Virus record (IMG/VR): IMGVR_UViG_3300008265_000001 | Source of the DNA: a virus | Reading direction: 5' to 3' (one strand) | DNA length: 64,000 nt | Shown here: positions 37,872 to 58,439 of the stretch, piece by piece | Layout: each line of letters starts with the position of its first letter | Position numbering within the stretch: position 1 is the first letter of the stretch | The notes under the pieces: generated by a model | Told to the model about the DNA's origin: nothing | The model's database searches: none | Seen by the model: only the letters and a program-made list of their open reading frames with translations | Translations under genes and position numbers: made by a program

Positions 37872-38768
37872 CTAATTTATTTTCCATTTAATACTTAATT
37901 TATTTTCCATATCAAGTCTCCATGCCAAAGCATCTGCCCTACTAAAGAATGTGGGTGAGTTGTAATGCTTTTTATTAACGACAATTCTCGCTCTAAACTT
38001 TCCATTCCCGATATCATATACACCTTTACCAGAATTATCTCTTGCATTTAGTTTTTTATTTCTTATTAGTGTTTCTAGTTCTTTAATACTTCCCTCCCCA
38101 AACTTGTACACTTTTTCTGCCTCTAACTGTATAGCCAAAGCTTCTTCTCTTGTGGAATATGTTCCACAGCAAATTGTATTTTTATTAAGGTATATTCTTA
38201 CTTGCCATCTACCATCATCAAGTAATTTAATTCCTTTATTTGTCTGGATATTTTTATTTTTTTCTTTTATCTCCGATAAATATTTATAACTATCTCCCTC
38301 GGAAAATGTGCTAAATTTAGAAATTAAATTCTCTTTTTCTTTCAGTGCTTCTTCTTTTGTACAAAATGAGCCTACTCTTGCGGTTATACCTTTAAACTTA
38401 AGTCTTAACCTCCATTTATCATTTCTTTTATCTATGTGGCAGTTTATGTAGTATGACTCTCTTTCTGAAGGTCTAAAAACACTTTTGCAAATATTGTAGC
38501 AAAAATCCCAATTCTCAATACTGTCCAGATAAGTTTGTTCCAAATCTAGTAGCTTTTCTCTAGTAGATTCTTCAACAACAGTAAAATCAAAAACCTTTTC
38601 TCCGTATTTATTCCAAGCTTTTTGTAAATATTTGTTATCATGTATACCCTTTCTTAAATGTAATTTATGAGAGTTCCACCTAGTCCTTATACAAACTGAG
38701 CTGCCAACATAATACTTATTATTAGCAGTATTAGTAATAAAATAAATTCCTGATGTGTTCTTTTCCAT
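37872..38768 (-). CDS. GIY-YIG homing endonuclease with three AP2-like DNA-binding repeats
   Basis: GIYFITNTANNKYYVGSS...R...H...YL, then DKWRLRLKFKGITARVGSFCTKEEAL, GRWQVRIYLNKNTICCGTYSTREEAL and GKFRARIVVNKKHYNSPTFFSRADAL. Confidence 0.85.
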   Translation of the reverse strand: MEKNTSGIYFITNTANNKYYVGSSVCIRTRWNSHKLHLRKGIHDNKYLQKAWNKYGEKVFDFTVVEESTREKLLDLEQTYLDSIENWDFCYNICKSVFRPSERESYYINCHIDKRNDKWRLRLKFKGITARVGSFCTKEEALKEKENLISKFSTFSEGDSYKYLSEIKEKNKNIQTNKGIKLLDDGRWQVRIYLNKNTICCGTYSTREEALAIQLEAEKVYKFGEGSIKELETLIRNKKLNARDNSGKGVYDIGNGKFRARIVVNKKHYNSPTFFSRADALAWRLDMENKLSIKWKIN

Positions 38769-38775
38769 AATCACT

Positions 38776-38795
38776 ATTATAATTTTTTTTTTTTT
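38776..38795 (-). promoter_or_regulatory. TATAAT 7 nt before the ATG at 38768, preceded by an A13 tract
   Basis: The minus strand reads AAAAAAAAAAAAATTATAATAGTGATTATG. The homopolymer spans 38783..38795. Confidence 0.3.
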
Positions 38796-38880
38796 CTTCG
38801 CTTTTTCAAGTAACTTTGCAATTATTGAGTTTACCTGTATCAACAATCTCATCTATGTGAAATCAGTTACGAGCTACTAG

Positions 38881-43992: not shown

Positions 43993-44931
43993 TTATAGAA
44001 GCTTAGGTTTGGTTAATACAGTTGGTTTAGGAATTTCACCTTCAATAGTGAAGTCAGCAGCGTTGAATTTTGGTGTGCCAAATGAATCTAGTTCACCAGA
44101 GTAGTTGTAGACCAGCTTTAGAGGCGGGTTCATGGGTGAATTATTGTTGCACGACCCTATAGGTTTATATTTTATAGTGCCGTTACCAAATTCAATAATC
44201 TGTTTAGCAGCTTCAATGTGAGATTCTTCGTTGTAAATATGAGCGTCACCAAATACCCAAGTGAGTGAGCCAACTTTTAAATTGCTGTGGAAAGCGAAGT
44301 AAGTAAGCAAAGCCCAGTATTGTACGATATTTGCCTGAAAACCAAGTAACATATCTTGACTTCTGGCATAATGTTTGATGTGCAATTCACCGTTTACAAC
44401 AAAGAACTGAAGTACTGTGGAATGGCAACAACTTGGGGTTTGAGGGTTATTGTTGGTCTTCGTAATGTTAGCCATCTCTCCTGTGTTCCAAGATGTCAGA
44501 ACTAAGCGGCGGGAGTGTTGGTGATTTTTTAAGCCGTCGAGAATGTAAGCGATTTGGTCAAAACCATCTAGGTCGTACTCATTCATCCCATGCTCATCTC
44601 TGCCATAGGTTGTAGTAGTTTGGTTACGAAATTGTTCAGCATACCCGTTTATGTAGTTGCCGTCCTTGTTAAGTTGTCCAGCCCACCACTTAGATAACTT
44701 CTCAGGGCATTTGAGGCTACCAGACATGAACCACTCCATCTCGGTCAGCGCGAGTTTCCATGCTGTCTTGCGGATAGTGATTAGCGGTAGAGAGTCAAAT
44801 GTTACGTTATCAAGAAAGGGATTGCAGTAGCACGAATGGTTACGTGTTTCGACCACGTTATTGAGTCTCAAAATGTCTTGCAGTAGAAAAGCGTAGGTGA
44901 GGTCGGCGGAAGTGTAGTTAGTTGTTGTCAT
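43993..44931 (-). CDS. ThyA-family enzyme (thymidylate synthase or dUMP hydroxymethylase)
   Basis: LTEMEWFMSG, SRRLVLTSWN, SCCHSTVLQFFV (catalytic Cys), YARSQDMLLGFQANIVQY (Asn retained, so uracil-specific) and GDAHIY. Confidence 0.8.
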   Translation of the reverse strand: MTTTNYTSADLTYAFLLQDILRLNNVVETRNHSCYCNPFLDNVTFDSLPLITIRKTAWKLALTEMEWFMSGSLKCPEKLSKWWAGQLNKDGNYINGYAEQFRNQTTTTYGRDEHGMNEYDLDGFDQIAYILDGLKNHQHSRRLVLTSWNTGEMANITKTNNNPQTPSCCHSTVLQFFVVNGELHIKHYARSQDMLLGFQANIVQYWALLTYFAFHSNLKVGSLTWVFGDAHIYNEESHIEAAKQIIEFGNGTIKYKPIGSCNNNSPMNPPLKLVYNYSGELDSFGTPKFNAADFTIEGEIPKPTVLTKPKLL

Positions 44932-45193
44932 GGTTTTCCCAGCTTATTTCGTAAATTTTACAGTTAGATTCACATCTCGTACCCATATCTGTGATAGTGT
45001 AACCCAAGTCTTGTAAGCGAACTTTAGTTTCATCTAAAAGATATTCGCCTCGCAAAGTAGTATAAACAACACTATTTTGCCCTTCACTCTGTAATTGGAA
45101 GAATAAGGCAGACAAATATTTTAGGCTATTGATTCTGTCTTTAGTTTCAAGTTTGGGGATATCTCTAACCGCACTCGCTGATAGTATTTGCAT
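44918..45193 (-). CDS. hypothetical protein
   Basis: Track ORF trimmed to the ATG at 45193. Confidence 0.5.
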   Translation of the reverse strand: MQILSASAVRDIPKLETKDRINSLKYLSALFFQLQSEGQNSVVYTTLRGEYLLDETKVRLQDLGYTITDMGTRCESNCKIYEISWENHDNN

Positions 45194-45659
45194 CGCCTCT
45201 CCTCTGTTGTAGTAATGTACGTCTTGCTTCAAGGTGGTTCAATAACCATCGATATTTGCGGCTTTCGTCAACCACATTTCCATCAGAGTCTACGTGATAG
45301 TACAGAAAAGGAAGTTCTGAGTCAGTGAACTCCTCTTGCCAGTATTCGCTCCACTTGATTTTTTGGTCGAGCGCCTTTTTGATTTTGGCTTGAAGCTCGG
45401 CTGCGGGTAATTGCTGTTTTTTAGGTAGCGCAGTGAGTTGAGTAGCAAGAAGTTCAGTTTCCCAATCGTGGACACGGTTAAGGCGGCTATCTTCTTTGCA
45501 AGTTAGATGATACCAGTAAGCGGCAACACATAGGAATCTCCCTTCAGGCATATTTAATTCGCAGAGAGTGCGGTGTGAAAGAAATTTGCCTAGAAAAGTC
45601 GCGCCCTTAGCCCAAACATTAATATGCCCAACACCATCAAGTTTAGGGTTAATTGCCAT
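45165..45659 (-). CDS. hypothetical protein, tandem paralog 2
   Basis: INPKLDGVGHINVWAKGATFLGKFLS...YRWLLNHLEARRTLL parallels the upstream gene. Confidence 0.65.
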   Translation of the reverse strand: MAINPKLDGVGHINVWAKGATFLGKFLSHRTLCELNMPEGRFLCVAAYWYHLTCKEDSRLNRVHDWETELLATQLTALPKKQQLPAAELQAKIKKALDQKIKWSEYWQEEFTDSELPFLYYHVDSDGNVVDESRKYRWLLNHLEARRTLLQQRRGDANTISECG

Positions 45660-46113
45660 TTCTTTTCTGCCTCTCTTTCAGTAATGTGCGTCGTGCTTCC
45701 CAGTGATTCATAATCCATCGGTATTTATCTGTAACGTCCTTCACGACACCTTTGAACACATAATAATGAACAAAAGGTAATTCAGATTTGGTAAACTCTT
45801 CAAGCCAATAAGGACTAGATTTGATTTTCAAGTCCATAGCCTTTTTGATTTTGGCTTGGAACTCTTCTTGTGGTACTTTTACTTGGGTTAACATCATCCC
45901 CAAATTCTTCGCATCAAAGCCTGACAAATGAAATAATTCAGAGGACTTTTCTTTGGTCGTTAAGTAATACCAGTATCCCTCTAAAGATTGGAATGTACCT
46001 TCAGGAAGTACAAGTTCATGTCTTGCAAAGTTCGTAAGAAATCTGCCAAGAGGAGTAGCACCTTTAGAATAGATATTAATGTGGGTCTTGCCGTCGAGTG
46101 TAGGGTCAATCAT
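45649..46113 (-). CDS. hypothetical protein, tandem paralog 1
   Basis: MIDPTLDGKTHINIYSKGATPLGRFLTNF...YRWIMNHWEARRTLL. The ATG at 46113 is preferred over the GTG at 46125. Confidence 0.65.
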   Translation of the reverse strand: MIDPTLDGKTHINIYSKGATPLGRFLTNFARHELVLPEGTFQSLEGYWYYLTTKEKSSELFHLSGFDAKNLGMMLTQVKVPQEEFQAKIKKAMDLKIKSSPYWLEEFTKSELPFVHYYVFKGVVKDVTDKYRWIMNHWEARRTLLKERQKRNGN

Positions 46114-46253
46114 GTTAGTAAGCACTTACAAATTAAATCACCAAAAGAATCGTAAATTTCGACAAAATCGCCTACGACTTGTGCGGTATTTTTATGTTTA
46201 GTACCAAAGTCAATTGATGCAGGTTTTTGAAGAATTATATTTCGGTCAGACAT
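46110..46253 (-). CDS. small hypothetical protein (47 aa)
   Basis: Hand-translated as MSDRNIILQKPASIDFGTKHKNTAQVVGDFVEIYDSFGDLICKCLLT. ATGA overlap with the next gene. Confidence 0.3.
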   Translation of the reverse strand: MSDRNIILQKPASIDFGTKHKNTAQVVGDFVEIYDSFGDLICKCLLT

Positions 46254-46355: not shown

Positions 46356-47087
46356 TTAGACGTAGTTCGGTAAATTTTCGTTAGCTTGCTCGAAAAACGC
46401 TGGCATCCGAGATTTACGTGTTTCAACTAGCTCAGGGGCTACTCCACGATACAGTAGCGAATCACTTTGGCGAATCCAAAAATCCTTGCTAGCATGATTA
46501 AGGTTAGCTGCTGCGGTTACTTCACCAACCTTGTCCACCATCCAAGCGACAGTAGTTTTACGAAGACGGTCAAGATTAGCGGTTAAGTCGATACCCATAT
46601 CTTTGCAGAAAAGAGAATTGGTAACAACATGAATCTGTTCATCCATTGAGATGTCACTAGAAACGGTTCTAAGGGCGCTGTTACCTAGAAAACGTAGGAT
46701 AGGGAGCAGGACAAAAAATACAGAGCGCTCAAGCACCATAGCCTTGAGTACAGGATGTTCGGGAGCATTTACCCAAGCATTGACGATGGCGGCTGCTTCT
46801 TTGTCATAGTTCGGCAGTTTACCACCGAATGAGTCTGCGGCGAATTGCAGTGCTTGGTCATGGCGAATCTCGTCAACAATATTGCTTTCAAGAAGTTCGA
46901 GGCTATTTGCAGGGATTTCCTTCTTAGTAGCAGCTTCGATAAAGTTACCAACAGGGATTTCGAGCGCTCTTAGGGACAAGGCTCTGGCAAGTACATCTTC
47001 AGCCCCTTCCACTACGGGTTCATAAGTTGGGCGAACAGGTGTCCATTTGCGTTTTTTGGTGAGTAGGTCGGTGTAATTAGAAGTCAT
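46356..47087 (-). CDS. nrdB: ribonucleotide reductase small subunit-like ferritin-fold protein, very short (243 aa)
   Basis: Two ExxH motifs (VDEIRHD and MDEQIHV), MVLERSVFFVLLP in between, and a C-terminal ..NLPNYV. The ATG at 47087 lies 5 nt after the alpha stop. Confidence 0.7.
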   Translation of the reverse strand: MTSNYTDLLTKKRKWTPVRPTYEPVVEGAEDVLARALSLRALEIPVGNFIEAATKKEIPANSLELLESNIVDEIRHDQALQFAADSFGGKLPNYDKEAAAIVNAWVNAPEHPVLKAMVLERSVFFVLLPILRFLGNSALRTVSSDISMDEQIHVVTNSLFCKDMGIDLTANLDRLRKTTVAWMVDKVGEVTAAANLNHASKDFWIRQSDSLLYRGVAPELVETRKSRMPAFFEQANENLPNYV

Positions 47088-47091
47088 GGCG

Positions 47092-48801
47092 TTATTCCGA
47101 GCAAGATGTGCAGTGTGTACGAGAAGATTCAGCAGATGGTTCAAAACCGAATAGAGAAAAGTCAATAATTTCGCCACTAGGGACAGCAAAAGAACTTTTA
47201 TTTTGTGTGTCGGGCATTACTGGTAAAGAATAGTAAAGCGACTTGATTGGACTATCGAGGAAATCTTGGATGAATTGTTGGTCGGCATAAATTATGTCGC
47301 TCCACCAGTTCATGCTAATCGAGTGACCAAGACCTGTTGAGTCCATCAAGCGTTGGAAATAGCTGTTCAACTTAAAGAAGGTTTCCCAGCCTACTTCGGC
47401 AGCGATTTCAGTCTTGGGGTGATAGTCGTAGCTCTTGACACCAAAAGTAGCAGAGTCTCGTTCTACTAAACGATTGATTGGAGGTGCAATTTCGGGGGCA
47501 GTCGTGTATCCTTCACGGTCTACATAGTTATAAGAGCAAGTTGCCGTCGGTGCGATAGTGAATGCGCGTTCCATTCCATAAAGTTTTGCAATTTCAGCTC
47601 CTTGGTGATACCCCGATACAAGATTTTCAACAATTTTTAAAGCTTTGGCATTTACTGTTGGTTCATAGTATAGAAAGGAGTCAGAAAAGAAGTACTCAAA
47701 AGCTTCTACAAACTCTTTGTAACTTACCTCTTCAATAGCCAGTAGATTAGCCAAACCAAGGAAGCCGTAACCAATCTGACGGTCTTCTTCTGGTTTAAGG
47801 TAAATTCCAGAGTCGCCAACACCTGTAATTGCGTGAAGTTGGCATAGGATTTCTACACCTTCTTTCATTACTTGAGGAATCTCTTCGATGGTACAAGCGC
47901 CAAGATTTCCGTGCATTAACAAACACGTTGCTTTGTGTTTTATTGCGATTTCAAGGCAAACTTGCAGATAGATTCGTTCGCCCTTAGCGTCGTACAACTT
48001 CTTAACAAGCCAAACATCACCACCTTGCATTTTCTCGATTAAGTCAGCGAGAATTTCAGGATGAGAAGTAATGAGATGTTCATCAACATTGAGAGCGCGT
48101 TTTGCCCATGAGACTTGTTCGCGAGTCATGTTTAAAAACTCGGAAACGTATGGGTAGTCATAGTCGTAATGGAGTGTGATTGCACCATTTTTGAAGATGC
48201 CTCCACGACGAAGTACCTGATTTAGAGTGCTGTAGACACCAGAAAGAGTGGTCAGTGAAGTATCGGAAATGTAAGCGTATAGTGCAGAATAAATCGCCTT
48301 GAAGCTGCTTGCACCAGAAGCGGTCAATCCTTGTGGGTTAGTGGTTCCTTTTTTGCGTAGGCGGCTCAAATCGACGACAACAAATTTATCGCCAGAGTAG
48401 TTAAGGAACGCCAACCAAGAGTTCTCAATTGACAAAATATTATCTTTACCTTGTTCCATCGAATCAGCAACAGAAATTACATACTCGTATGATTTGGGGG
48501 GTGTAGTTAATTCTTCGTAAGAGGCATCATAATCACCAGAGCAGTTCTCACCCAGATAAACGCGCCAGCTAAACTTACGATTGATTGGAACGATATTTTC
48601 AGGTAAATGAATCGCCACACCTGCCGCATTGCGTAACGCCTTCGAGGTGAAAATGAAGCTTTCGTCGATGTTGTTGTCGTCGCACACAAACACTGTACAG
48701 CTAACTGGTAAGCGTGAGCCGCTATTCTTCATCCAGTCTTTGATTCTGCCTGTCACAGCCTGTTTTTCCCATGTCGGGAACTTAGTAATATCTAAAGTCA
48801 C
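47092..48801 (-). CDS. nrdA: ribonucleotide reductase large subunit, compact class I-like (569 aa, no ATP cone)
   Basis: DLSRLRKKGT...SGASSF, VLRRGGIFKNGA, YLQVCLEIAI (thiyl Cys/Glu loop), ATCLLMHGNLG, APTATCS, KSLYY and a C-terminal CTSC. Confidence 0.8.
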   Translation of the reverse strand: MTLDITKFPTWEKQAVTGRIKDWMKNSGSRLPVSCTVFVCDDNNIDESFIFTSKALRNAAGVAIHLPENIVPINRKFSWRVYLGENCSGDYDASYEELTTPPKSYEYVISVADSMEQGKDNILSIENSWLAFLNYSGDKFVVVDLSRLRKKGTTNPQGLTASGASSFKAIYSALYAYISDTSLTTLSGVYSTLNQVLRRGGIFKNGAITLHYDYDYPYVSEFLNMTREQVSWAKRALNVDEHLITSHPEILADLIEKMQGGDVWLVKKLYDAKGERIYLQVCLEIAIKHKATCLLMHGNLGACTIEEIPQVMKEGVEILCQLHAITGVGDSGIYLKPEEDRQIGYGFLGLANLLAIEEVSYKEFVEAFEYFFSDSFLYYEPTVNAKALKIVENLVSGYHQGAEIAKLYGMERAFTIAPTATCSYNYVDREGYTTAPEIAPPINRLVERDSATFGVKSYDYHPKTEIAAEVGWETFFKLNSYFQRLMDSTGLGHSISMNWWSDIIYADQQFIQDFLDSPIKSLYYSLPVMPDTQNKSSFAVPSGEIIDFSLFGFEPSAESSRTHCTSCSE

Positions 48802-48865: not shown

Positions 48866-49531
48866 TTAGAATGCAGCTAGGTCGTACTTTTCCTCTAGCC
48901 AGTCGAGGTGAGACTCATTGGTACTAGCCTCAAGTGATGCACGTTTCATACTGTAAGTCCAGTTGTCGATTTGCTCAGGATGAATCTTGAAATAATTATC
49001 ATCAGAGCTAAAATAAGCGTAGTCAGGAAACTTAGAGCGAACCTTTTCAATATATGGGTCGTCGTCTTGATAGTTAGGATGTACGCGCACAATAGACTTG
49101 TTGTTAACACCAGCGTCAAATTCAGGAGTTGTGCTGATTGTTCGGTGCTTATACCATGTTAGAGATAAGTTGACAGCAAAGGAACTTAAAACCGAATCGT
49201 GCGTCTTTTGTCCCATCATCATTAGTTGAACGGGAATAGCAGTGTCTAGAGGCTCAAAAATCACCTTAGTTTCAGGAGACTTGCCGTAGCCTATACCTAC
49301 TTCACCAAAATCTTTGTATCCGTCCAACTTGAACCCAACGTCTATCAACAAATCGTAGATTGTCTTAGTACTTCTGCCACCAGCATAGAAATAAACATCA
49401 AGGTCAGTAGCTTCTCGTCCTAGATACCAATCGCGAGGCGCTCCACCAGCAATAATGGCGTGGCGGTCAATTTGCTCAATCATTGCGAGAACTTGGTCAG
49501 CGTAAGCTTGTTGCAGTTTAATAATCGACAT
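48866..49531 (-). CDS. pol-beta superfamily nucleotidyltransferase, CCA-adding/poly(A) polymerase head-like
   Basis: IIAGGAPRDWYLGREATDLDVYF matches the GG.(V/P)RD..LG....D.D head motif. At 221 aa it lacks the usual body and tail. Confidence 0.65.
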   Translation of the reverse strand: MSIIKLQQAYADQVLAMIEQIDRHAIIAGGAPRDWYLGREATDLDVYFYAGGRSTKTIYDLLIDVGFKLDGYKDFGEVGIGYGKSPETKVIFEPLDTAIPVQLMMMGQKTHDSVLSSFAVNLSLTWYKHRTISTTPEFDAGVNNKSIVRVHPNYQDDDPYIEKVRSKFPDYAYFSSDDNYFKIHPEQIDNWTYSMKRASLEASTNESHLDWLEEKYDLAAF

Positions 49532-50843: not shown

Positions 50844-52016
50844 CTAAGCCGAATAATCTGACATCTCTCTAATGACAGAAGAGATTAAATTTTGATTGTC
50901 AAAATAAAAACATTCAGACTTACCATCGAAAGTCTTTTTAGGAGTATATTTGTATTTCTTGAAGATTCGCTGAAGATGGTTCTCTAATTTAAATATTAGG
51001 CTAGGGTCGTCACTAGATATAACGTGGATAAGTTCGTATGCATAAGGCATATCGTTTTTAAAACGTCTCTTTATGGTGTTGTAAGTCCTCCCTACCTTAT
51101 AGAAGTTTTCTTCTTCGCCCGATAATTTTACAAAATATACTTTGTAACTATCGAAATATTTAGAGGATTTTGCATTTTTCTTCCAAGCTATTAATCCCCA
51201 ACCATGAGGGTTTTCATAGTTAGCTATATTAGTTTTATCTCTACCACAAACACTACAACCAGTACCTTGCAAATGACCACTTGGCAAGATTTTAAAGTCT
51301 CCGTGTTTAGGGCAGGTGACAGTTATCTTATCGGCTGCGGTTGTATAGATTAACTTATCGTAACTATAAAAGCTTGAGTGTTTTTCATTTGCCCTTTCTA
51401 TAAACTCTTGTCGCGTATATCTTTTCGCTTCCCCAACTCTCTCACCCCCACATTGGGGGCAACCATCTCCATCCAAATGCCCCATAGCAGATTGTAGAAA
51501 ATCTCCATGTTTAAGGCAAGTAATCTTACTTTTAGAGCCATAAAGAGTATATTCAAACCTATCGTAGCTATAAGTATTTCCGTGTATTTCTCTAGCCTTG
51601 TTTATAAAGTACAGGTTTTTATTGGTAGCACTTCTAAACGACGGGGAAGCTCCTCTTAGTATTGAGGCTGGCAACATTTCATGTAATCCATACTTATCTT
51701 TTAATGTTATTGGGCTATAAAGTCCTTTGCAATTAGACAAGAATTTATAGGGGAAGTTAGGGAATTTATTATATAAGCGTTTTAAAAATTCTTCGTGACT
51801 AACCCTACGTTTAGCTGCTGTCGCTTCGCAACCGCATTTATTACAACCCTCTCCCTGCATATGACCACTAGGCATCTGCTCAAATAAACCGTGAATCGGA
51901 CAAATTATTTTTACGGGAAAGGTACTAGATATGTACTCAGACAAAGAGTAGTCATATTTGTTACTATGACTTTTATTAGACCTCTCAATAAATGATGTGG
52001 TTGTTACTTTTGGCAT
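50844..52016 (-). CDS. putative homing endonuclease: three zinc-ribbon repeats plus C-terminal T5orf172/GIY-YIG-like domain
   Basis: Three copies of F(I/L).(R/K)..(K/E).H...Y.Y......(S/T)..KI...CP.HG.F.Q....H..G.GC..CG. The C-terminus reads YFVKLSGEEENFYKVGRTYNTIKRRF... Confidence 0.65.
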   Translation of the reverse strand: MPKVTTTSFIERSNKSHSNKYDYSLSEYISSTFPVKIICPIHGLFEQMPSGHMQGEGCNKCGCEATAAKRRVSHEEFLKRLYNKFPNFPYKFLSNCKGLYSPITLKDKYGLHEMLPASILRGASPSFRSATNKNLYFINKAREIHGNTYSYDRFEYTLYGSKSKITCLKHGDFLQSAMGHLDGDGCPQCGGERVGEAKRYTRQEFIERANEKHSSFYSYDKLIYTTAADKITVTCPKHGDFKILPSGHLQGTGCSVCGRDKTNIANYENPHGWGLIAWKKNAKSSKYFDSYKVYFVKLSGEEENFYKVGRTYNTIKRRFKNDMPYAYELIHVISSDDPSLIFKLENHLQRIFKKYKYTPKKTFDGKSECFYFDNQNLISSVIREMSDYSA

Positions 52017-52204: not shown

Positions 52205-54772
52205 TTAGTGACATCCTGCCCATGAACGGGAAATTTTGAACTCAAAACCAAGATTGACTCTTAATTTTAAAGTTGATACTGATTTTGCAAGAGACTCAGT
52301 AATAGTTCTGGATATTACGCTAGGCATTGCCACGTAATAGCCACGTTTGCCTTTAGAGATAGGACTGATTTGCTCGCCTTGCCAAGAAGATACAAACTCT
52401 TCTGCAAGTTCTTTTGTTTCAAAATTACGAATTTCAACCATATTTTTAGTAATAGCAAGTTGGACTTCATCGTGCATTTCTATCATTGGACAGATTTCAG
52501 GCTTATTAACAAATGGGTCTGTGCAATACCCCTGCTCTTCAAAACTCTGCATCATGAATACAGTAGCATACTTAACAGAGATAACACCACCACTTTGAAA
52601 TAAGGCATTCAACAATGAATGTTTGCTTCGAGTCATAATTTTTCGCTTGTCCAAACCGAGAATATGTTGCTTTCCAGACTTCTCCCAGTAAGCCTCTAAT
52701 TTTTCTTTCAATGCCTTCAATGCTGGCATACCATTCCAGAAATCGTTATAGAGTTGTTGCGCTTTTTTCAAGCTAATTGATAGCATCTTTGCAAGTTTAG
52801 CTGGTTGCGCTCCGTATAGGCAAGCATAGCTAAAACTTTTAGCATCATCTCTACTAATTCCTAACTTCTTAGCGTTCAAAGAATGCAAATCATTTGGTTT
52901 TGCAGCTACCATTGCTTGAGCTAGTTCTTCTCCTCCTTGAAACGGTATTACATAGTGTCCAGATATACAATTTTCGAGGGAGTTTATATCGAAACCACCT
53001 TCCCAAAACTCGCTACCAGAGCCAAACAAGCCTCTAATAACTTCACCGTAAACACTTGATACTCTAGGTATATTGCAAACACCAATATGTTTGTATCGCG
53101 TTGTATTGCAGCCTATAGTAATGCAAGGGGTTGGTATTCTGCCATCTACCTCACGGAACTGAGCTAAGTATCCAGACGGAGGGCTTTCTTCATCGAAATC
53201 AAAATCCTCGGAGATGCCCCCCGCTATCGAATTTTTACGATGCTTATATGTCAAGTACAAAGCAAAATCTCCAGCAAAAGAAACAGCAGAACCCAACTTA
53301 GTTAAATTGGGGCAAAGCTCTTTTTCAACCCCTAAGCGCACCATCGGGCTTGTTGGGACTAAAACTGGTTTGTTTGATTTTATTTTCTCAGCCAGCACAG
53401 AAAAAAGACTATTCTCATCAAGCTCAAGAACTTCCAATCTCTGCTCTTTGTATTTACCATCTTCCAGAGTTTCTTTAACGTATCTTTGGAGCGCTGCAAG
53501 ACGTTTTTCATAAGGGATAGACTGTTTTTTAGAATCACAGATGAGATTTCTTTGTCTGTATTCGAGAGGATGCCAACCACACTCAATAAGGTAACTCTTC
53601 ACCCAATCTATATTATCGATATCAGCTTCAATATGAGTCTCTAGCGGCTCGTTATAGGGAAGAGGGTACATTTGCCCTTTATAAAATAAAATCCACTCTC
53701 CATCGATTTCATCAAGCGTTCCGTTAACTTTTTTAGCGAACTTCACCATAGATTCGGTAGGTTCAGTAAATTCTGGCACTAACGCCTCGTAATATGGCAA
53801 TTCATAGCACGTTGCATTGAACCAAAACGAAAAACTTCCTTCTTCATAGGCAATTTCTTCTTGGTTTTTTAGAAACTTTACAACCGCAGCCGACAATGTA
53901 CCATCTTTTTTCACCTGCACTTTAGGAAGATAGATAGCTTTGTGGGTTTTTAGCTGATTTGCTGGGGGGGTAACTTCCGCTAATTCGCCTTTATTACGAG
54001 GTTTGGGGGGTAATAGAGGATTAATGCTATCTGCAATCACCTTCATCTTTTCTTGTAAGTCTTGGACTGCTTCACGCGCTGCCTTTTCATCAAATGCAAA
54101 ACCAAAATGCTCTCTTCTAAGTGCCAAATCGCAAAGCTTCGATTCCATCTTAAAGGCTTGATGCCATCCTGAATACTCTAAATACTCAGACCACAAACGT
54201 TGAAACAGCTTGCAAGTGACTACAGTATCCTGAATACAATAATCGAGTAAAAGTGGTGTCCAGTTTAGGAATTGTTCACTTTTACCAGAATTTTTTTCAA
54301 TGTAACCTGCCTCAATGCAAGCACTTCTGTAGTCTTGCTTGTGTTCGCCAAGCCTCGCCCCCCAAGCTTCGAGCGAATGCCCCATTCCTTCAGGAGTATA
54401 GCGGTCAGGACTTAGCAAACGAGACAAGAGCAGTGTATCAACAATTTGGCAAGGCTGACCAAATACTTCATCGCTTTGGTCGAGGTATCCAATTCTATAG
54501 TCAAGAACACCAAATAGCTTCAGTGCTGGAAAGTCAAATGAGATGCCATTGTGAGCAACCAAGTGTGTGCAACCCTTGAGAACACCAGCAAGCCAATCCC
54601 TAGTAACACTTTCTTTTTCTGCACTCCAAGTCTCGCCTGTGTTCACATCACGCACAACAACACAGTGCAACTTCGCACTAGGCAGTAGTTTGTAAGGGAA
54701 GCTAGAATAGTCGAGCATCCCTGAGAGGAGGTTGTCAGTTTCAATATCCAGAACTAAAATTCTATCTGTCAC
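52205..54772 (-). CDS. family A DNA polymerase with 3'-5' exonuclease domain
   Basis: ExoI is VLDIETDN, ExoII is HNGISFDFP and ExoIII is YCIQDT. Pol motif A is DINSLE, motif B is RDDAKSFSYACLYG and motif C is MHDEVQ. GTG start abuts the upstream stop. Confidence 0.92.
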   Translation of the reverse strand: MTDRILVLDIETDNLLSGMLDYSSFPYKLLPSAKLHCVVVRDVNTGETWSAEKESVTRDWLAGVLKGCTHLVAHNGISFDFPALKLFGVLDYRIGYLDQSDEVFGQPCQIVDTLLLSRLLSPDRYTPEGMGHSLEAWGARLGEHKQDYRSACIEAGYIEKNSGKSEQFLNWTPLLLDYCIQDTVVTCKLFQRLWSEYLEYSGWHQAFKMESKLCDLALRREHFGFAFDEKAAREAVQDLQEKMKVIADSINPLLPPKPRNKGELAEVTPPANQLKTHKAIYLPKVQVKKDGTLSAAVVKFLKNQEEIAYEEGSFSFWFNATCYELPYYEALVPEFTEPTESMVKFAKKVNGTLDEIDGEWILFYKGQMYPLPYNEPLETHIEADIDNIDWVKSYLIECGWHPLEYRQRNLICDSKKQSIPYEKRLAALQRYVKETLEDGKYKEQRLEVLELDENSLFSVLAEKIKSNKPVLVPTSPMVRLGVEKELCPNLTKLGSAVSFAGDFALYLTYKHRKNSIAGGISEDFDFDEESPPSGYLAQFREVDGRIPTPCITIGCNTTRYKHIGVCNIPRVSSVYGEVIRGLFGSGSEFWEGGFDINSLENCISGHYVIPFQGGEELAQAMVAAKPNDLHSLNAKKLGISRDDAKSFSYACLYGAQPAKLAKMLSISLKKAQQLYNDFWNGMPALKALKEKLEAYWEKSGKQHILGLDKRKIMTRSKHSLLNALFQSGGVISVKYATVFMMQSFEEQGYCTDPFVNKPEICPMIEMHDEVQLAITKNMVEIRNFETKELAEEFVSSWQGEQISPISKGKRGYYVAMPSVISRTITESLAKSVSTLKLRVNLGFEFKISRSWAGCH

Positions 54773-55447
54773 TTAACCTTCCTCCAAATAGTTTAAAACA
54801 AACTTCACAAAATCATCAAAAGGCTGCGTAGCGCTGAAATCATTATTATCAAGCCAGTAGTCAGGTATCTCCACCTTGTTATAAAAATCCCACTGTAACA
54901 ACTCACTCTCTGGTGGGCGATGTGTACCGTACCGCATACTCTTGTTAGGTTCTACCCAACCATGAAGAGTCTCTCTTGCCTTCTGAGCCTTAGCAGCAGC
55001 TTCGTTGTGAATGTACACAACTTTACCACCTTGTCGCTTCACCCAATCGAGTTCATTCTGGTAACGTAAATCTGAAATGAGCAAAATACTTGCAGAATTA
55101 CCATACTTCCTATCGAGGGCATTAATAAACACATCTTCGCCAAGATTTTCGCGAAGTAATTGCCCTACTCTTTTCTGCACATCTCTTGAAGACCACTTAG
55201 ACTCGATGCCAGAACGGTTAGCGCCAAATACAAATCGTTTCTCTTCTTTCAAGCTGCGGTCTTGCAATTCCTTACCACTAATGCCAAGAATCGGAGCTAT
55301 GGCTTCATTCAACGAGTCTGCAAAGCGAGTTCTTACAGTAGACATGGTGTAGCGATGCTGATAAATCAATCGGGACTGCAAGCGATTCATGATGAAGTCT
55401 TTACCTCCGTTGATTGAAGATATAGCAGCTATAATTTTTCTAGTCAT
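54773..55447 (-). CDS. T4 gp1-like deoxynucleoside monophosphate kinase
   Basis: AISSINGGKDFI (an SGKD-type P-loop variant) and ISDLRYQNELDW. Confidence 0.65.
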   Translation of the reverse strand: MTRKIIAAISSINGGKDFIMNRLQSRLIYQHRYTMSTVRTRFADSLNEAIAPILGISGKELQDRSLKEEKRFVFGANRSGIESKWSSRDVQKRVGQLLRENLGEDVFINALDRKYGNSASILLISDLRYQNELDWVKRQGGKVVYIHNEAAAKAQKARETLHGWVEPNKSMRYGTHRPPESELLQWDFYNKVEIPDYWLDNNDFSATQPFDDFVKFVLNYLEEG

Positions 55448-56042
55448 TTTGTCTACTCTCTATTATCATTTTTACAAATTTCAAAGCTTCGTCATTAGTG
55501 TGATTATTCTTCATAAGGTTAGCACCTTTACAAACAAATTGAACATTCCCTTGGGCATATTCTTTACTGGAGTCAATCCTATCTAAACTAGCTCCCCATA
55601 AAGGTGTTCTAGGTCGTTTCTTTACCTCTAAAGTAGTTGCTCTAATCTCCATAGGTACACCCGTTAAAGCACATATACCTTTCTGACTGTCCCAGACATC
55701 CTTAAGGTATTGTAAAGTTAAATTTTCGTATTGTCTATGCCCTTTTTTGCGGGAACCATTTAGAAATAATCTAAAAGGGCTGAACTCATCTAAATTTTTC
55801 AATTTTCTTTGTATGTTTATATATCTTTTTTGTTCTGGTGATAGGGCTTTAGACCCTTTTAATCCCCTCAATCTAAGTTCTTCCTTATCGGTTAATTTTT
55901 GGGCAGTACAACTCACGCTACAGAATGTCATTTTAGACTTGTTTCTAGATAGTCTGTATTTCAATTCCGATTCAGTAAGTGAAATTAAAACCCCACAAAA
56001 ATCACAAGGGTAATTTACCCTCTTCTTAAAAGGTCTAGACAT
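55440..56042 (-). CDS. HNH-family endonuclease with N-terminal zinc finger
   Basis: CDFCG...CSVSC, then ASLDRIDSSKEYAQGNVQFVCKGANLMKNNH. Confidence 0.7.
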   Translation of the reverse strand: MSRPFKKRVNYPCDFCGVLISLTESELKYRLSRNKSKMTFCSVSCTAQKLTDKEELRLRGLKGSKALSPEQKRYINIQRKLKNLDEFSPFRLFLNGSRKKGHRQYENLTLQYLKDVWDSQKGICALTGVPMEIRATTLEVKKRPRTPLWGASLDRIDSSKEYAQGNVQFVCKGANLMKNNHTNDEALKFVKMIIESRQND

Positions 56043-56774: not shown

Positions 56775-58439
56775 TTAAAACTCATCTTCAATACTCTCCT
56801 CAGTAATAACCGAACTTTCTACAGCAACTACATTACCAGCAATACCATCGATTAACATCTCCTCTAGGACATACTCTGTCCCAGCTTCATCTACGACCGT
56901 GTAGGTAACATCGCGCAGACTTGCTTTCTCGCTTCTTGAAGTTACGGTGAAATCTTCGCCATTGTGGGATACAACATCACCAACTTGATATAAGAACGAA
57001 GTTGTCAGTTGCTTCAGTCGCTCACGCTCCTCGTCAGAAAAGAGAAGTTTGAGGGCAGCTTTGCGACGTTCGGTAGTCCAATCATGCGTTAAGTTGTAGA
57101 GAGCGCGTTTGTCCTTGCACAGCATTGCGTTATGTGCGTCAAGAACCGCAGGGGAGTATTGCTTGGCAGCTTTCTCAGGCTCAACCATCCAAAGTGACTC
57201 AGAGGGCATAACATAAGTCATTTGAGTGCCATCATGAACTGCAATAATTGTCTGGTTTTCAGTTAAATATCCCAAACTCTGCTTGACTTCAAATGTGCCT
57301 CCAAAAGATAGTAGGTCTTTCACGATATACGCTTTGCCATGATTCGCAGCAAAATGTCTAAGTAGTTTTCCAGTGAGTTCATGATTAGAATCAGCACTCT
57401 CAGATAGCACTTCAAGCCCGTCTAGCCCGTTTTCCAATTTAACCATGTTGTATTCGATTGTCATTGGCTTACCTTGCCTTGGAAGCGTTGTTAGGGTAAG
57501 TGGGGAGTTGGTATCTTTGTTGTAGTCTTCTTTTTTAGTCTTGAAAAGGGCAATAATGCCATCACTATTAGATGAAATTGAGGTTGAACCACTCAGAGCG
57601 TTGACCAAACTACCTTTTTGACCGTTTTTAGCTCCTTCTTTCGATAAATGGTGAATCACAACCCCGCAAGTATCTGTCTGCGTGAAAACTTGCTTCAATT
57701 TAGCTACAATTTTACCGAACTCACTAGAATTTTCTGAAAACTCGCTGTTAGCTGTTGAAGCTCGAAGACTGTCGATGATAACAAGTGTGGGCGAATACTC
57801 CATTATTCTCTTTTGCAAGTATGGAATCTCAATCGTCGCATCAAAAATTCTCTCGACTACTAAGGCATCAGGGTCAAAGTTGACTAGTAAGCTAGTTCCT
57901 TTATCATTCTTGTTACCAAACCCAGCCATGTAGACTCTGCTGGCAATAGTTTTTCTGTTTTCTTCCAATTGCCAATAAAGTACGCGACCTTTTTTAACTG
58001 GAAGACCTAAAAAGCGTCCAGAAATTGCGAACGAATAAGCTAGTTGGTATGCTAGGAGCGACTTTCCGCATTTTGGCTCAGCACCGAAGATGTACATACC
58101 GCCAGCTTGAAGGAGATTAGGAATAAGCCACTGGTCGGAGGGGTCGTAGCTCTCAAGTATTTTTTTGAGGTTCATGCTGCGTTCAAATACTGGAGTAGGA
58201 TTCATCAGTTCTTGAATGTCAGCACTGATGTTTTTAGGCTCGAAACCAAGAAGAGGATACCACTTAGAGGCTATCTTGTTGCGGAGTAACCTCAAAGCTT
58301 GTTTTTTGTTCTCAACCCCCTCTTCCTCCATGAACTTGACAAACCCTCGAAGGTCTTGAGCATACTCTGCCAATAATGCTTTGTGGTTATCAAGTGTGAA
58401 ATCAATTTTCTCTAACCCAAGGCTTTCTGTGTATTGCAT
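56775..58439 (-). CDS. RepA/DnaB-like replicative helicase (RecA-fold)
   Basis: Walker A is GAEPKCGKSLLAYQLA and Walker B is LVIIDSLRA. Confidence 0.85.
   Translation of the reverse strand: MQYTESLGLEKIDFTLDNHKALLAEYAQDLRGFVKFMEEEGVENKKQALRLLRNKIASKWYPLLGFEPKNISADIQELMNPTPVFERSMNLKKILESYDPSDQWLIPNLLQAGGMYIFGAEPKCGKSLLAYQLAYSFAISGRFLGLPVKKGRVLYWQLEENRKTIASRVYMAGFGNKNDKGTSLLVNFDPDALVVERIFDATIEIPYLQKRIMEYSPTLVIIDSLRASTANSEFSENSSEFGKIVAKLKQVFTQTDTCGVVIHHLSKEGAKNGQKGSLVNALSGSTSISSNSDGIIALFKTKKEDYNKDTNSPLTLTTLPRQGKPMTIEYNMVKLENGLDGLEVLSESADSNHELTGKLLRHFAANHGKAYIVKDLLSFGGTFEVKQSLGYLTENQTIIAVHDGTQMTYVMPSESLWMVEPEKAAKQYSPAVLDAHNAMLCKDKRALYNLTHDWTTERRKAALKLLFSDEERERLKQLTTSFLYQVGDVVSHNGEDFTVTSRSEKASLRDVTYTVVDEAGTEYVLEEMLIDGIAGNVVAVESSVITEESIEDEF

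What the first reader, a model, noticed from the sequence alone, without database searches (positions are those of the whole stretch)
46356..48801. Minimal class I-like RNR: 569-aa alpha with Gln at the conserved Asn and 243-aa beta lacking the radical tyrosine
Alpha has class I hallmarks: a KSLYY tyrosine dyad and a C-terminal CTSC pair. It also has the thiyl loop ..CLEI.. and the second redox Cys in ATCLLMHGNLG. It has no ATP cone and is about 200 aa shorter than NrdA. In the loop aligned with SSNLCLEI it reads YLQVCLEI, so the near-universal Asn two residues before the thiyl Cys is Gln. I also could not place the first redox Cys confidently, because the region aligned by eye reads YEYVISVADS. 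Beta is about 100 aa shorter than typical R2. It keeps E...ExxH...E...ExxH. By my count the first ligand is Glu (ALEIP), not Asp, and the residue four positions after the first His (DEIRHDQAL) is Leu where the radical Tyr should be. Glu plus a non-Tyr residue is the class Ic (Mn/Fe, radical-free) pattern, here in an unusually small phage enzyme.
Basis: partly seen in the sequence, partly recalled or inferred. Interest (0 to 1): 0.65.

Follow-up and report, generated by a model that had tools for sequence, protein, structure and literature searches.

The report
Long-form class Ø phage ribonucleotide reductase
These two phage genes encode a ribonucleotide reductase of the already described cyanophage-type "class Ø / Cyano SP" family, so the radical-tyrosine-free small subunit is ordinary for that family; the large subunit has two features I did not find described, a glutamine at the normally invariant active-site asparagine and an internally duplicated N-terminal element.

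Summary
Both ORFs are real: alpha 47092-48801(-), 569 aa; beta 46356-47087(-), 243 aa. They lie 4 nt apart in a phage replication and nucleotide-metabolism module.

They are not a new kind of RNR.
- Alpha matches the cryo-EM structure of Synechococcus phage S-CBP4 RNR (7URG, E 1e-119). The AF2 model superposes on it with TM 0.91.
- Beta has exactly the published Cyano SP / class Ø pattern: Glu first ligand, Leu at the Tyr122 site, about 240 aa, penultimate Tyr (Harrison 2019; Burnim 2022).

Two features are absent from the papers I read.
1. Gln280 (CAA) sits at the universal Asn. It is conserved in relatives, with synonymous change around it. It occurs in 17 of 89 family clusters.
2. Alpha is a "long form", with 78 + 19 extra residues flanking loop 1. 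These hold a second, diverged copy of the betaA-alphaA element. Copy 1 keeps the redox Cys and has lost the D-S-M motif; copy 2 is the reverse (3/87 versus 82/87). Long forms are most of the family's clusters, yet only the short form has been studied.

Likely function: an O2-dependent RNR whose oxidant is stored on the metal cluster. The metal is unknown.

The parts
47092..48801 (-). RNR alpha (catalytic) subunit, 569 aa, class Ø / Cyano SP family, long form
   Evidence: ORF. phmmer to 7URG, E 1.4e-119. phrog_367, E 2e-29. AF2 pLDDT 87.1, pTM 0.88. Foldseek to 7URG_A, E 4e-44, TMt 0.91.
46356..47087 (-). RNR beta (ferritin-like, radical-generating) subunit, 243 aa
   Evidence: ORF and ATG start. 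phrog_6799, E 6e-92. 49% identical to P-SSP7 beta YP_214198. AF2 pLDDT 90.0. The best Foldseek hits are class I R2 proteins.
48697..48699 (-). alpha C35, first redox-active Cys (E. coli C225, S-CBP4 C30)
   Evidence: Alignment to 7URG. Nearly invariant in the family. Aligned to PISC of class Id and AC134F of class II. Codon checked.
47950..47964 (-). alpha finger-loop motif Q280-V-C282-L-E284: Gln at the universal Asn site, thiyl Cys, catalytic Glu
47923..47925 (-). alpha C293, second redox-active Cys (E. coli C462, S-CBP4 C196)
47230..47235 (-). alpha Y523-Y524 tyrosine dyad (S-CBP4 Y420/Y421, E. coli Y730/Y731)
   Evidence: Invariant in alignments A1 and A2. Aligned to 7URG. Codons checked.
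47101..47112 (-). alpha C-terminal C564-T-S-C567 redox shuttle, in a low-confidence (disordered) tail
   Evidence: Invariant Cys pair. pLDDT below 50 for residues 537-569.
48370..48603 (-). alpha residues 67-144: extra segment absent from S-CBP4. It holds a second, Cys-less copy of betaA-alphaA-betaB (YVISVADSME...IENSW...VVVD) that leads directly into loop 1 (LSRLRKKG).
   Evidence: Alignment gap against short forms. Confidently folded as strand-helix-strand-helix-strand. An HMM of the short-form N-terminus hits it at 12.2 bits, E 3e-4, and hits 86 of 87 long forms against a shuffled maximum of 4.8 bits. Complementary motif retention.
48235..48291 (-). alpha residues 171-189: 19-aa extension that splits helix alphaB into two helices (164-179, 183-197)
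   Evidence: Present as 19 aa in nearly all long forms.
46959..46961 (-). beta E43, first metal ligand (Glu, not Asp)
   Evidence: Invariant. Aligns with P-SSP7 E42 (Table 3 of PMC6370689).
46848..46874 (-). beta D72-E73-I-R-H76-D-Q-A-L80: second-sphere Asp, ligands Glu and His, and Leu at the Tyr122 position
   Evidence: L80 is more than 90% conserved and is Phe in some members.
46728..46730 (-). beta E120, fourth metal ligand
   Evidence: Invariant. Aligns with P-SSP7 E117.
46629..46643 (-). beta D149-E150-Q-I-H153: second EXXH motif
   Evidence: Invariant. Aligns with P-SSP7 D146/E147/H150.
46362..46364 (-). beta Y242, penultimate residue; candidate inter-subunit radical-transfer Tyr (E. 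coli Y356 analogue)
   Evidence: Invariant in A4. Feature described for the class in PMC9531940.

Best explanation
The two genes encode the catalytic (alpha) and radical-generating (beta) subunits of an aerobic, ferritin-dependent ribonucleotide reductase of the class Ø / Cyano SP family. It is carried by a large phage to make dNTPs during replication.

Inferred mechanism, by homology with class I enzymes and the S-CBP4 structure:
1. Beta assembles a di-metal centre on E43/E73/H76/E120/E150/H153.
2. Position 80 is Leu, so no tyrosyl radical can be stored there. The oxidising equivalent must be held on the metal cluster itself, as in class Ic/Id.
3. The oxidant is passed through beta Y242 to the stacked alpha dyad Y524/Y523 and then to C282. 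The resulting thiyl radical abstracts the substrate 3'-H.
4. E284 acts as base. C35 and C293 deliver the reducing equivalents and form a disulfide.
5. The flexible C564-x-x-C567 tail re-reduces that disulfide, using a thioredoxin or glutaredoxin that is not encoded in this window.

Gln280 replaces the Asn that normally hydrogen-bonds the substrate ribose. It is a tolerated, selected variant of this family, not a defect.

Alpha is a long form. An internal duplication of the betaA-alphaA(-betaB) element sits between the first betaB and loop 1. Copy 1 has kept the redox Cys. Copy 2 has kept the D-S-M / IE.SW motifs and loop 1, which is the specificity-effector side of the element.

What is shown: the homology, the residue map, the gene pairing and the conservation. 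What is inferred: the metal identity, the radical path, the role of Gln and the role of the duplication.
For: Alpha homology and fold:
- Alpha matches 7URG at E 1.4e-119, with exact alignment of C30/C185/C196/Y420/Y421.
- The family profile matches 7URG at E 4e-213. The next hits are class Id 6dqw (3e-15) and class II 1xjk (2e-12), with the Asn, thiyl Cys and first Cys columns aligned.
- The AF2 model is confident and superposes on 7URG with TMt 0.91.

Beta:
- It begins 4 nt after alpha.
- It is 49% identical to P-SSP7 beta, with every published ligand aligned.
- All six ligands, D72, D149 and Y242 are invariant, and L80 is more than 90% conserved, across 60 homologues.
- The model is a helical ferritin-like bundle whose best PDB neighbours are R2 proteins.

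Genomic context:
- The neighbourhood encodes DNA polymerase A, dNMP kinase, helicase-primase, thymidylate synthase and a nucleotidyltransferase.
- The same synteny is seen in related metagenomic phage contigs of up to 142 kb.

Gln280:
- All 7 close relatives have it, as do 94 of the 120 best homologues and 17 of 89 clusters that carry the Glu.
- The codon is CAA or CAG, with synonymous variation in the flanking codons.
- Gln-type alphas are followed by a beta gene in long phage-like contigs.

Duplication.
Against: - No member of this family has a demonstrated enzymatic activity or a known metal cofactor. PMC9531940 and the 2026 preprint PMC12918982 both say it is not biochemically characterised.
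- Beta has no significant sequence match to any Pfam, NCBIfam or PDB entry. Its Foldseek E-values to R2 proteins are weak, at best 4e-3.
- From memory (Kasrayan et al. 2002, not retrievable here), the Asn is essential in E. coli class Ia mutagenesis. An effect of Gln on catalysis therefore cannot be excluded.
- No thioredoxin or glutaredoxin motif was found in the window.
Confidence: 0.85

Rival explanations
1. The enzyme is a true class Ic RNR: a Mn(IV)/Fe(III) cofactor, as in Chlamydia trachomatis NrdB. This is what the first reader proposed.
For: - The first-sphere ligands E/E/H/E/E/H and a non-Tyr residue at the radical site match class Ic (Table 3 of PMC6370689).
- C. trachomatis NrdB (4d8f) is among the Foldseek hits for beta.
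Against: - The same first sphere is shared with class Id (Mn2).
- The second-sphere residue before the first EXXH is Asp72, whereas it is Glu in class Ic (PMC6370689, Table 3).
- Harrison et al. found the clade separate from NrdBz(c) in every tree and in the sequence similarity network.
- Beta gets no PF00268 hit and no PDB sequence hit even as a profile.
- Beta ends one residue after the Tyr and so lacks the alpha-binding tail.
- The 4d8f Foldseek hit is rank 37, E 0.04.
Confidence: 0.15
2. Alpha is really a cobalamin-dependent class II-like reductase, possibly monomeric because of the extra residues around loop 1. The downstream ferritin-like gene would then be unrelated or accessory.
For: - Burnim et al. 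report that class Ø alphas hit class II far better than class I by BLAST (PMC9531940).
- The extra residues flank loop 1, the region that is expanded (29-82 aa) in monomeric class II enzymes (bioRxiv 10.1101/2022.04.23.489257).
- After the cyanophage hits (ranks 1-3), the next BFVD matches, at ranks 4-6, include a protein named as containing the B12-dependent RNR insertion domain (TMq 0.56-0.62).
Against: - The YY dyad is invariant across the whole family. In 7URG it is stacked next to the thiyl Cys, in the space where class II enzymes place the adenosyl group (PMC9531940).
- A beta homologue directly follows alpha in every context inspected, with invariant metal ligands.
- The best non-Ø profile hit is class Id, not class II.
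Confidence: 0.06
3. The Gln-for-Asn alpha is catalytically dead: a decaying gene or a pseudo-enzyme kept for another role.
For: From memory (not retrievable in this library), substitutions of the Asn inactivate E. coli class Ia.
Against: - The ORF is intact and all other catalytic residues are invariant.
- Gln is fixed across relatives with 82-87% amino-acid identity, with synonymous changes in the flanking codons.
- Gln recurs on several branches of the family and in the most abundant metagenomic cluster.
- The partner beta is equally conserved.
- No second RNR was seen in the window: alpha matched only itself among the ORFs examined.
Confidence: 0.05

Closest known systems
Class Ø / Cyano SP RNR (Synechococcus phage S-CBP4 alpha, PDB 7URG; Prochlorococcus phage P-SSP7 nrd-020/021)
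   Same: - Alpha is about 47% identical. It has the same barrel, the same Cys trio, YY dyad and C-terminal Cys pair, and no ATP cone.
- Beta is about 50% identical. It has the same six ligands and second-sphere Asp residues, Leu/Phe at the Tyr122 site, a penultimate Tyr and a length of about 240 aa.
- The gene order is the same, alpha then beta.
   Different: - Alpha is 99 residues longer: 78 aa holding a second betaA-alphaA-betaB copy, plus a 19-aa alphaB extension.
- It has Gln rather than Asn two residues before the thiyl Cys.
- It has a CXXC tail rather than the CXC tail of S-CBP4.
- The host phage is much larger (relatives reach 142 kb) than the roughly 45-kb cyanopodoviruses. No isolate in the phage collection reaches 60% identity to either subunit.
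Class Ic RNR (Chlamydia trachomatis NrdA/NrdB, Mn/Fe)
   Same: Glu as first ligand, and a redox-inert residue where the tyrosyl radical would sit. The oxidant is therefore presumably stored on the metal cluster.
   Different: - There is no detectable sequence homology of beta to PF00268.
- The second sphere differs (Asp versus Glu).
- Beta lacks the C-terminal alpha-binding tail.
- Alpha lacks ATP cones.
- The clade is phylogenetically separate (PMC6370689).
Class Id RNR (Flavobacterium johnsoniae NrdAi/NrdBi, Mn2)
   Same: Best non-Ø profile match of alpha (6dqw, E 2.6e-15). A cone-less minimal alpha with an identical first coordination sphere.
   Different: Class Id beta keeps the Tyr (though it is unused) and is a recognisable PF00268 member. 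Class Id alpha has the canonical Asn and no duplicated N-terminal element.
Monomeric class II RNR (Lactobacillus leichmannii RTPR)
   Same: Extra residues in the betaB / loop 1 / alphaB region. In RTPR these fold back on alphaA and alphaB and mimic the dimer interface. Here, four helices (alphaA, alphaA', alphaB-a, alphaB-b) lie in one chain.
   Different: RTPR has a cobalamin cofactor and no beta subunit. No sequence similarity of the inserts was shown, and whether the window protein is monomeric is untested.

Membership tests
Class Ø / Cyano SP RNR | Alpha homologous to the S-CBP4 / P-SSP7 catalytic subunit over the whole barrel | tested here: met
   phmmer to 7URG, E 1.4e-119. Profile, E 4e-213. 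Foldseek TMt 0.91. 56 cyanophage records hit at 44-47% identity.
Class Ø / Cyano SP RNR | No ATP-cone; the barrel starts about 30 residues from the N-terminus | tested here: met
   No ATP-cone hit in Pfam. C35 on betaA.
Class Ø / Cyano SP RNR | Stacked YY dyad on betaJ, plus the thiyl Cys and two redox Cys | tested here: met
   Y523/Y524, C282, C35 and C293 align with Y420/Y421, C185, C30 and C196 of 7URG. They are invariant or nearly so. Stacking itself could not be inspected because no coordinates were available.
Class Ø / Cyano SP RNR | C-terminal CXXC or CXC pair | tested here: met
   C564-T-S-C567.
Class Ø / Cyano SP RNR | Small (about 240 aa) ferritin-like gene immediately downstream of alpha | tested here: met
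   243 aa, 4-nt spacer.
Class Ø / Cyano SP RNR | Beta has E + EXXH + E + EXXH, second-sphere D/D, Phe or Leu at the Tyr122 site, and Tyr as penultimate residue | tested here: met
   E43, D72/E73/H76, L80, E120, D149/E150/H153, Y242.
Class Ø / Cyano SP RNR | Minimal alpha architecture: few insertions, with about 412 aa average and 470 aa for S-CBP4 as described | tested here: not met
   569 aa, with 78 + 19 extra, confidently folded residues. This is a descriptive rather than a mechanistic criterion. Most family clusters found here are also long.
Class Ø / Cyano SP RNR | Ferritin-dependent radical generation; metal cofactor | not testable with these tools
   This has not been established even for the type member (PMC9531940; PMC12918982).
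All class I/II RNRs | Asn two residues before the thiyl Cys (E. coli N437) | tested here: not met
   Gln280, codon CAA.
Class Ic RNR | Glu first ligand and a non-Tyr residue at the radical site | tested here: met
   E43 and L80.
Class Ic RNR | Beta belongs to the NrdB (PF00268) lineage, NrdBz subgroup | tested here: not met
   No Pfam hit and no PDB sequence or profile hit. Published trees place the clade apart from NrdBzc (PMC6370689).
Class Ic RNR | Mn(IV)/Fe(III) cofactor | not testable with these tools
   Requires metal analysis and spectroscopy.
Monomeric class II RNR | Long insertion between betaB and alphaB that mimics the dimer interface | tested here: inconclusive
   97 extra residues flank loop 1, and four helices are predicted. 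The 3D packing could not be inspected.
Monomeric class II RNR | Cobalamin dependence with no beta subunit | tested here: not met
   A conserved beta gene is adjacent and the YY dyad is invariant. Cobalamin binding itself is not testable here.

The most novel reading that the evidence does not exclude
Long-form class Ø alpha subunits, including this one, carry an internal duplication of the betaA-alphaA(-betaB) element that has subfunctionalised.
- Copy 1 supplies the redox Cys to the active site.
- Copy 2 supplies the D-S-M / IE.SW effector-site motifs and loop 1.
- The extra alphaA' helix and the split alphaB then build the four-helix specificity site within one chain. This would be a ferritin-dependent counterpart of the pseudo-dimeric monomeric class II enzymes.

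Because long forms dominate the family and lie on its deep branches, the "minimal" S-CBP4-type enzyme would be a secondary reduction, not an ancestral state.

In addition, this family shows that the "essential" active-site Asn can be Gln. In a sister subclade outside the window, the catalytic Glu is replaced by Gly.
Probability: 0.3. Interest if true: 0.7.

Novelty: new variant of a known kind. Interest (0 to 1): 0.42.

Why it matters
The headline of the finding, a tyrosyl-radical-free mini-R2 paired with a cone-less alpha, is already in the literature, so it does not open a new question by itself. Three points remain of value.

1. **The Gln variant.** The Gln-for-Asn substitution is a natural, selected variant at a position treated as obligatory. 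RNR marker-gene pipelines discard sequences lacking "essential catalytic residues" (PMC6370689 methods), so they may be dropping a large, abundant part of this clade. The variant also gives enzymologists a ready-made test of what that Asn does.

2. **The long form.** Class Ø has been presented as the most minimal, ancestral-like RNR on the basis of 35 sequences and one short-form structure. Here most of the family's sequence clusters are about 100 aa longer, with a duplicated, complementarily degenerated N-terminal element next to the allosteric loop. This bears on the evolutionary model (minimal ancestor versus secondary reduction). It also bears on how specificity regulation and dimerisation work in this class.

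3. **Annotation.** Neither subunit passes Pfam or NCBIfam thresholds, so such genes are routinely annotated as hypothetical.

Tried and rejected
- **Beta against the PDB by sequence.** A single-sequence search and a 44-sequence profile both found nothing. The fold assignment rests on AF2 plus Foldseek with weak E-values.
- **Family libraries.** Pfam and NCBIfam gave only a sub-threshold Ribonuc_red_lgC hit for alpha (14.3 bits against a cutoff of 23.9) and nothing for beta.
- **Internal duplication by pairwise alignment.** A Smith-Waterman alignment of residues 25-69 against 70-150 was not significant (score 18 against a shuffled mean of 20.5). hhalign gave only a 9-column match at 43% probability. 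Only the profile-versus-many-targets test was convincing.
- **Compensating residue for Gln.** A search for a column co-varying with Gln/Asn found nothing that survives correction for about 500 columns. The best was p 1.7e-4 at residue 451; S/T at residue 421 gave p 7e-4.
- **Reductant.** A thioredoxin/glutaredoxin CxxC motif scan of the window found no credible candidate.
- **Literature on Asn437 and D232.** Searches of the held library found nothing usable. Statements about E. coli N437 mutants and about D232 / T. maritima D141 binding the effector are from memory.
- **3D placement of the two copies.** The prediction tool returns no coordinates, so it remains open which betaB is in the barrel and whether the helices form an intramolecular bundle.
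- **Intein or recent mobile insertion.** I considered and rejected this reading of the extra segment. The segment is too short, lacks splicing motifs, is shared at 30-47% identity across the family, and is homologous to the protein's own N-terminus.
- **Sequencing error at Gln280.** Rejected, because CAA differs from AAY at two positions.
Full report
**1. What is there**

The window carries two co-directional ORFs on the minus strand.
- The first is 47092-48801, 569 aa, starting at GTG.
- The second is 46356-47189. Its homologue-supported start is the ATG at 47087, giving 243 aa.
- Alpha ends ...HCTSCSE-TAA. Four bases later beta begins ATG ACT TCT....

The neighbourhood is a phage replication and nucleotide-metabolism module. 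It includes thymidylate synthase (43993-44931), a nucleotidyltransferase (48866-49531), an endonuclease (50844-52016), DNA polymerase A (52205-54772), dNMP kinase (54773-55447) and a helicase-primase (56775-58439). Elsewhere the window has portal and tail genes and an RNA ligase. Related metagenomic contigs of up to 142 kb keep the order polA ... alpha-beta ... thymidylate synthase.

**2. Checking the observation**

- KSLYY (Y523/Y524);
- C564-T-S-C567;
- Y-L-Q280-V-C282-L-E284-I;
- A-T-C293-LLMHGNLG.

In beta:
- A-L-E43-I-P;
- D72-E73-I-R-H76-D-Q-A-L80;
- E120;
- D149-E150-Q-I-H153;
- Y242 as the penultimate residue.

No ATP-cone is detected.

The one error is the first redox Cys. It is C35 in PVSCTVF, not the YEYVISVADS region. 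HMMER aligns C35, C282, C293 and Y523/Y524 with C30, C185, C196 and Y420/Y421 of PDB 7URG. According to Burnim et al., these are the residues seen as the active-site disulfide, the finger-loop Cys and the stacked dyad in the cryo-EM map (PMC9531940).

A 57-sequence family profile aligns the column holding Q280 with the Asn of SNLCSE in class Id (6dqw) and of NPCGE in class II (1xjk). It aligns C35 with PISC and AC134F of the same two enzymes. So Gln280 really occupies the universal Asn site. The codon is CAA, two substitutions away from AAY.

**3. What it is**

Alpha matches only one solved structure by sequence: the Synechococcus phage S-CBP4 RNR, 7URG, at E 1.4e-119. In the phage genome collection it hits 56 records, all cyanophages or uncultured marine phages, at 44-47% identity. 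Beta hits the same 56 records at 47-52%.

Pfam and NCBIfam do not recognise either protein above threshold. PHROGs do: phrog_367 for alpha and phrog_6799 for beta, the latter at E 6e-92.

The AF2 model of alpha is confident (pLDDT 87.1, pTM 0.88). It superposes on 7URG with TM 0.91 normalised to the target. Class Ia, Ib, Id and II enzymes follow at TM of about 0.5.

The beta model (pLDDT 90.0) is an all-helical ferritin-like bundle. Its nearest PDB neighbours are R2 subunits of classes Ia, Ib, Ic, Id and Ie, with weak E-values. Other ferritin-like oxidases follow, such as cyanobacterial aldehyde-deformylating oxygenase.

This is therefore a member of the clade named Cyano SP by Harrison et al. 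2019 (PMC6370689) and class Ø by Burnim et al. 2022 (PMC9531940).

**4. What was already known**

- Harrison et al. identified the overlooked beta of P-SSP7. They listed its ligands (E42, E71, H74, E117, E147, H150; second sphere D70, D146). They also noted the missing Tyr122 equivalent and showed that the clade branches away from class Ic. They proposed a new subclass.
- BLASTP of the window beta against P-SSP7 beta aligns every one of those residues, with L80 opposite P-SSP7 L78.
- Burnim et al. added four points: the ferritin-like proteins average 240 aa, they carry Phe or Leu at the radical site "much like class Ic", they end one residue after a conserved Tyr, and the alpha has a stacked YY dyad and a CXXC or CXC tail.
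- A 2026 preprint still calls the group biochemically uncharacterised.

**5. What I did not find in that literature: (a) the glutamine**

- All close relatives of alpha (82-87% identity, P0002-P0008) have Y-L-Q-V-C-L-E.
- Among the 120 best 90%-identity clusters, 94 have Gln. Most are a very abundant short-form group with VYFQVCLEV.
- In the unbiased 50%-identity representative library the whole family is small: 396 clusters at E <= 1e-3. Of the 89 representatives that carry the catalytic Glu, 17 have Gln and 72 have Asn, on several separate branches of a rough NJ tree.
- The Gln codon is CAA in the window and in loci L003-L006 and L008/L009, and CAG in L007. Flanking Leu, Val and Cys codons vary synonymously, which is the signature of selection for Gln.
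- Gln-type alphas are followed by a beta homologue in phage-like contigs.
- No column co-varies convincingly with Gln/Asn.

I found no mention of this substitution in either class Ø paper ("asparagine" occurs 0 times in PMC9531940; N437 is used only as a trimming coordinate in PMC6370689). I recall from memory, not from the library, that Asn437 substitutions inactivate E. coli R1.

**6. What I did not find in that literature: (b) the long form and its internal duplication**

Relative to S-CBP4, alpha has two extra pieces:
- 78 residues (67-144) between the betaB strand (GVAIHL) and loop 1 (LSRLRKKG);
- 19 residues (171-189) inside helix alphaB.

AF2 folds the first piece confidently as strand 79-82, helix 95-99, strand 107-112, helix 125-133 and strand 141-144. 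It splits alphaB into helices 164-179 and 183-197.

The segment YEYVISVADSMEQGKDNILSIENSWLAFLNYSGDKFVVVD-LSRLRKKG parallels the single N-terminal element of short forms, PVSCTVFVVEDSMEGxDGIEASWRFTSKALRNAAGVAIH-LSKLRPKG.

The statistics are as follows.
- A pairwise test was not significant, and hhalign was weak.
- An HMM was then built from short-form N-termini, deliberately excluding LS.LRPKG. It hits the extra segment in 86 of 87 long forms. The median is 7.1 bits, against a shuffled median of -3.2 and a shuffled maximum of 4.8. The best E-value is 1.9e-10, and the window scores 12.2 bits at E 3e-4.

Retention is complementary.
- In 87 long forms, the D-[ST]-[MILF] motif follows the redox Cys (copy 1) in only 3, but is present in copy 2 in 82.
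- A Cys lies upstream of the copy-2 motif in only 4.
- In 15 short forms, the single copy has the motif in 13.

The motif is ancient. T. maritima has C134-FVVPVG-D-S-I-E at the aligned place. From memory, E. coli has C225-VLIECG-D232-S-L, and that Asp contacts the specificity effector.

The long form is not a curiosity of this phage. It accounts for 87 of about 107 near-full-length representatives and is found on all deep branches of the rough tree. Short forms are nested among them. BFVD holds no long-form model; the best hit there is short-form cyanophage SS120-1, at TMq 0.68. Long-form alphas at 30-45% identity are also followed by a beta homologue.

**7. How it most likely works**

What is shown:
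- the homology and the residue map;
- the tight alpha-beta gene pair;
- invariance of the six ligands, of D72, D149 and Y242, and of the alpha Cys trio, Glu, YY dyad and Cys pair.

What is inferred from class I chemistry and from the S-CBP4 structure:
1. An O2-activated di-metal cluster in beta stores the oxidant itself, because L80 cannot hold a radical.
2. Proton-coupled electron transfer runs from Y242 through Y524 and Y523 to C282.
3. The thiyl radical abstracts the substrate 3'-H.
4. E284 acts as base, with Gln280 as the hydrogen-bond partner of the ribose in place of Asn.
5. C35 and C293 reduce the substrate.
6. The disordered C564xxC567 tail re-reduces them, using a thioredoxin or glutaredoxin that is not found in the window.

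The metal could be Mn/Fe as in class Ic, Mn2 as in class Id, or Fe2. This cannot be decided here.

For the duplication, the pattern suggests subfunctionalisation: copy 1 serves the active site, and copy 2 with loop 1 serves the specificity site. Monomeric class II enzymes use a 29-82-residue expansion of the same betaB-alphaB region to mimic the dimer interface. The window protein has four candidate bundle helices in one chain. A pseudo-dimeric monomer is therefore a reasonable but untested possibility. No coordinates were available to inspect the packing.

**8. Verdict**

The exception is the misplaced first Cys.
- I rate it a new variant of a known kind, on account of Gln280 and the duplicated long-form architecture.
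- Interest is moderate. It would be higher for RNR specialists if the pseudo-dimer or secondary-reduction reading holds.

Noticed in passing
not in the window; proteins P0318, P0342, P0347, P0358, P0367 and about 30 other cluster representatives; loci L010:126-1853 and L011:4001-5716: A deep subclade of long-form class Ø-like alphas has Gly or Ala where the catalytic Glu (E. coli E441) should be (motif N-V-C-x-G-[IL] ... T-C-L-I-W-R). It keeps the Asn, the thiyl Cys, both redox Cys, the YY dyad and the CXXC tail. It is followed by a beta homologue (L010:1920-2693, 35% identical to the window beta, ligands kept) in phage-like context (MazG, ThyX, sliding clamp). Class I/II chemistry is thought to need that Glu.
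   Followed up: partly
homologues P0101, P0244, P0253, P0325, P0356, P0371 (and P0005, P0007, P0010, P0067 at other sites): Many family members carry inteins. In several the intein sits exactly at the thiyl Cys: the intein starts at N-V-|C and ends ...HN|C-L-E, so the catalytic Cys is the +1 extein residue. Two members of the window's own 82-87% clade (942 and 965 aa) carry an intein further upstream, before about residue 207. The window gene has none.
   Followed up: partly
window 45165-45659 (-) and 45649-46125 (-): Two tandem paralogous ORFs (164 and 158 aa) lie immediately downstream of beta. Both match phrog_652 / phrog_11222, of unknown function, and they overlap by 11 nt. Relatives have one or two small ORFs in this slot.
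   Followed up: no
window 43993-44931 (-) versus locus L003:8525-9292: The window and most relatives carry a ThyA-type thymidylate synthase downstream of the RNR. One close relative (a 142-kb contig) has a ThyX (Thy1) gene in the equivalent slot, a non-orthologous replacement within one phage lineage.
   Followed up: no
window 50844-52016 (-), 55440-56042 (-), 37872-38852 (-): Several homing-type endonuclease genes (HNH, GIY-YIG, endonuclease VII-like) are interspersed in the replication module. The slot between polA and the RNR holds different endonucleases (HNH_3 or DUF723) in different relatives, which suggests mobile-element turnover.
   Followed up: no
window 46356-48801: Neither RNR subunit reaches the Pfam or NCBIfam cutoffs (alpha 14.3 bits against 23.9; beta no hit). 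Source names for relatives are mostly "hypothetical protein", and RefSeq calls the beta "class Ia beta subunit", which the residues contradict.
   Followed up: yes
proteins P0143, P0165 (beta homologues): Beta homologues at 55-57% identity occur in Calothrix genome assemblies (a 9.9-Mb contig). This indicates either prophage or cellular copies of the class Ø system in filamentous cyanobacteria.
   Followed up: no
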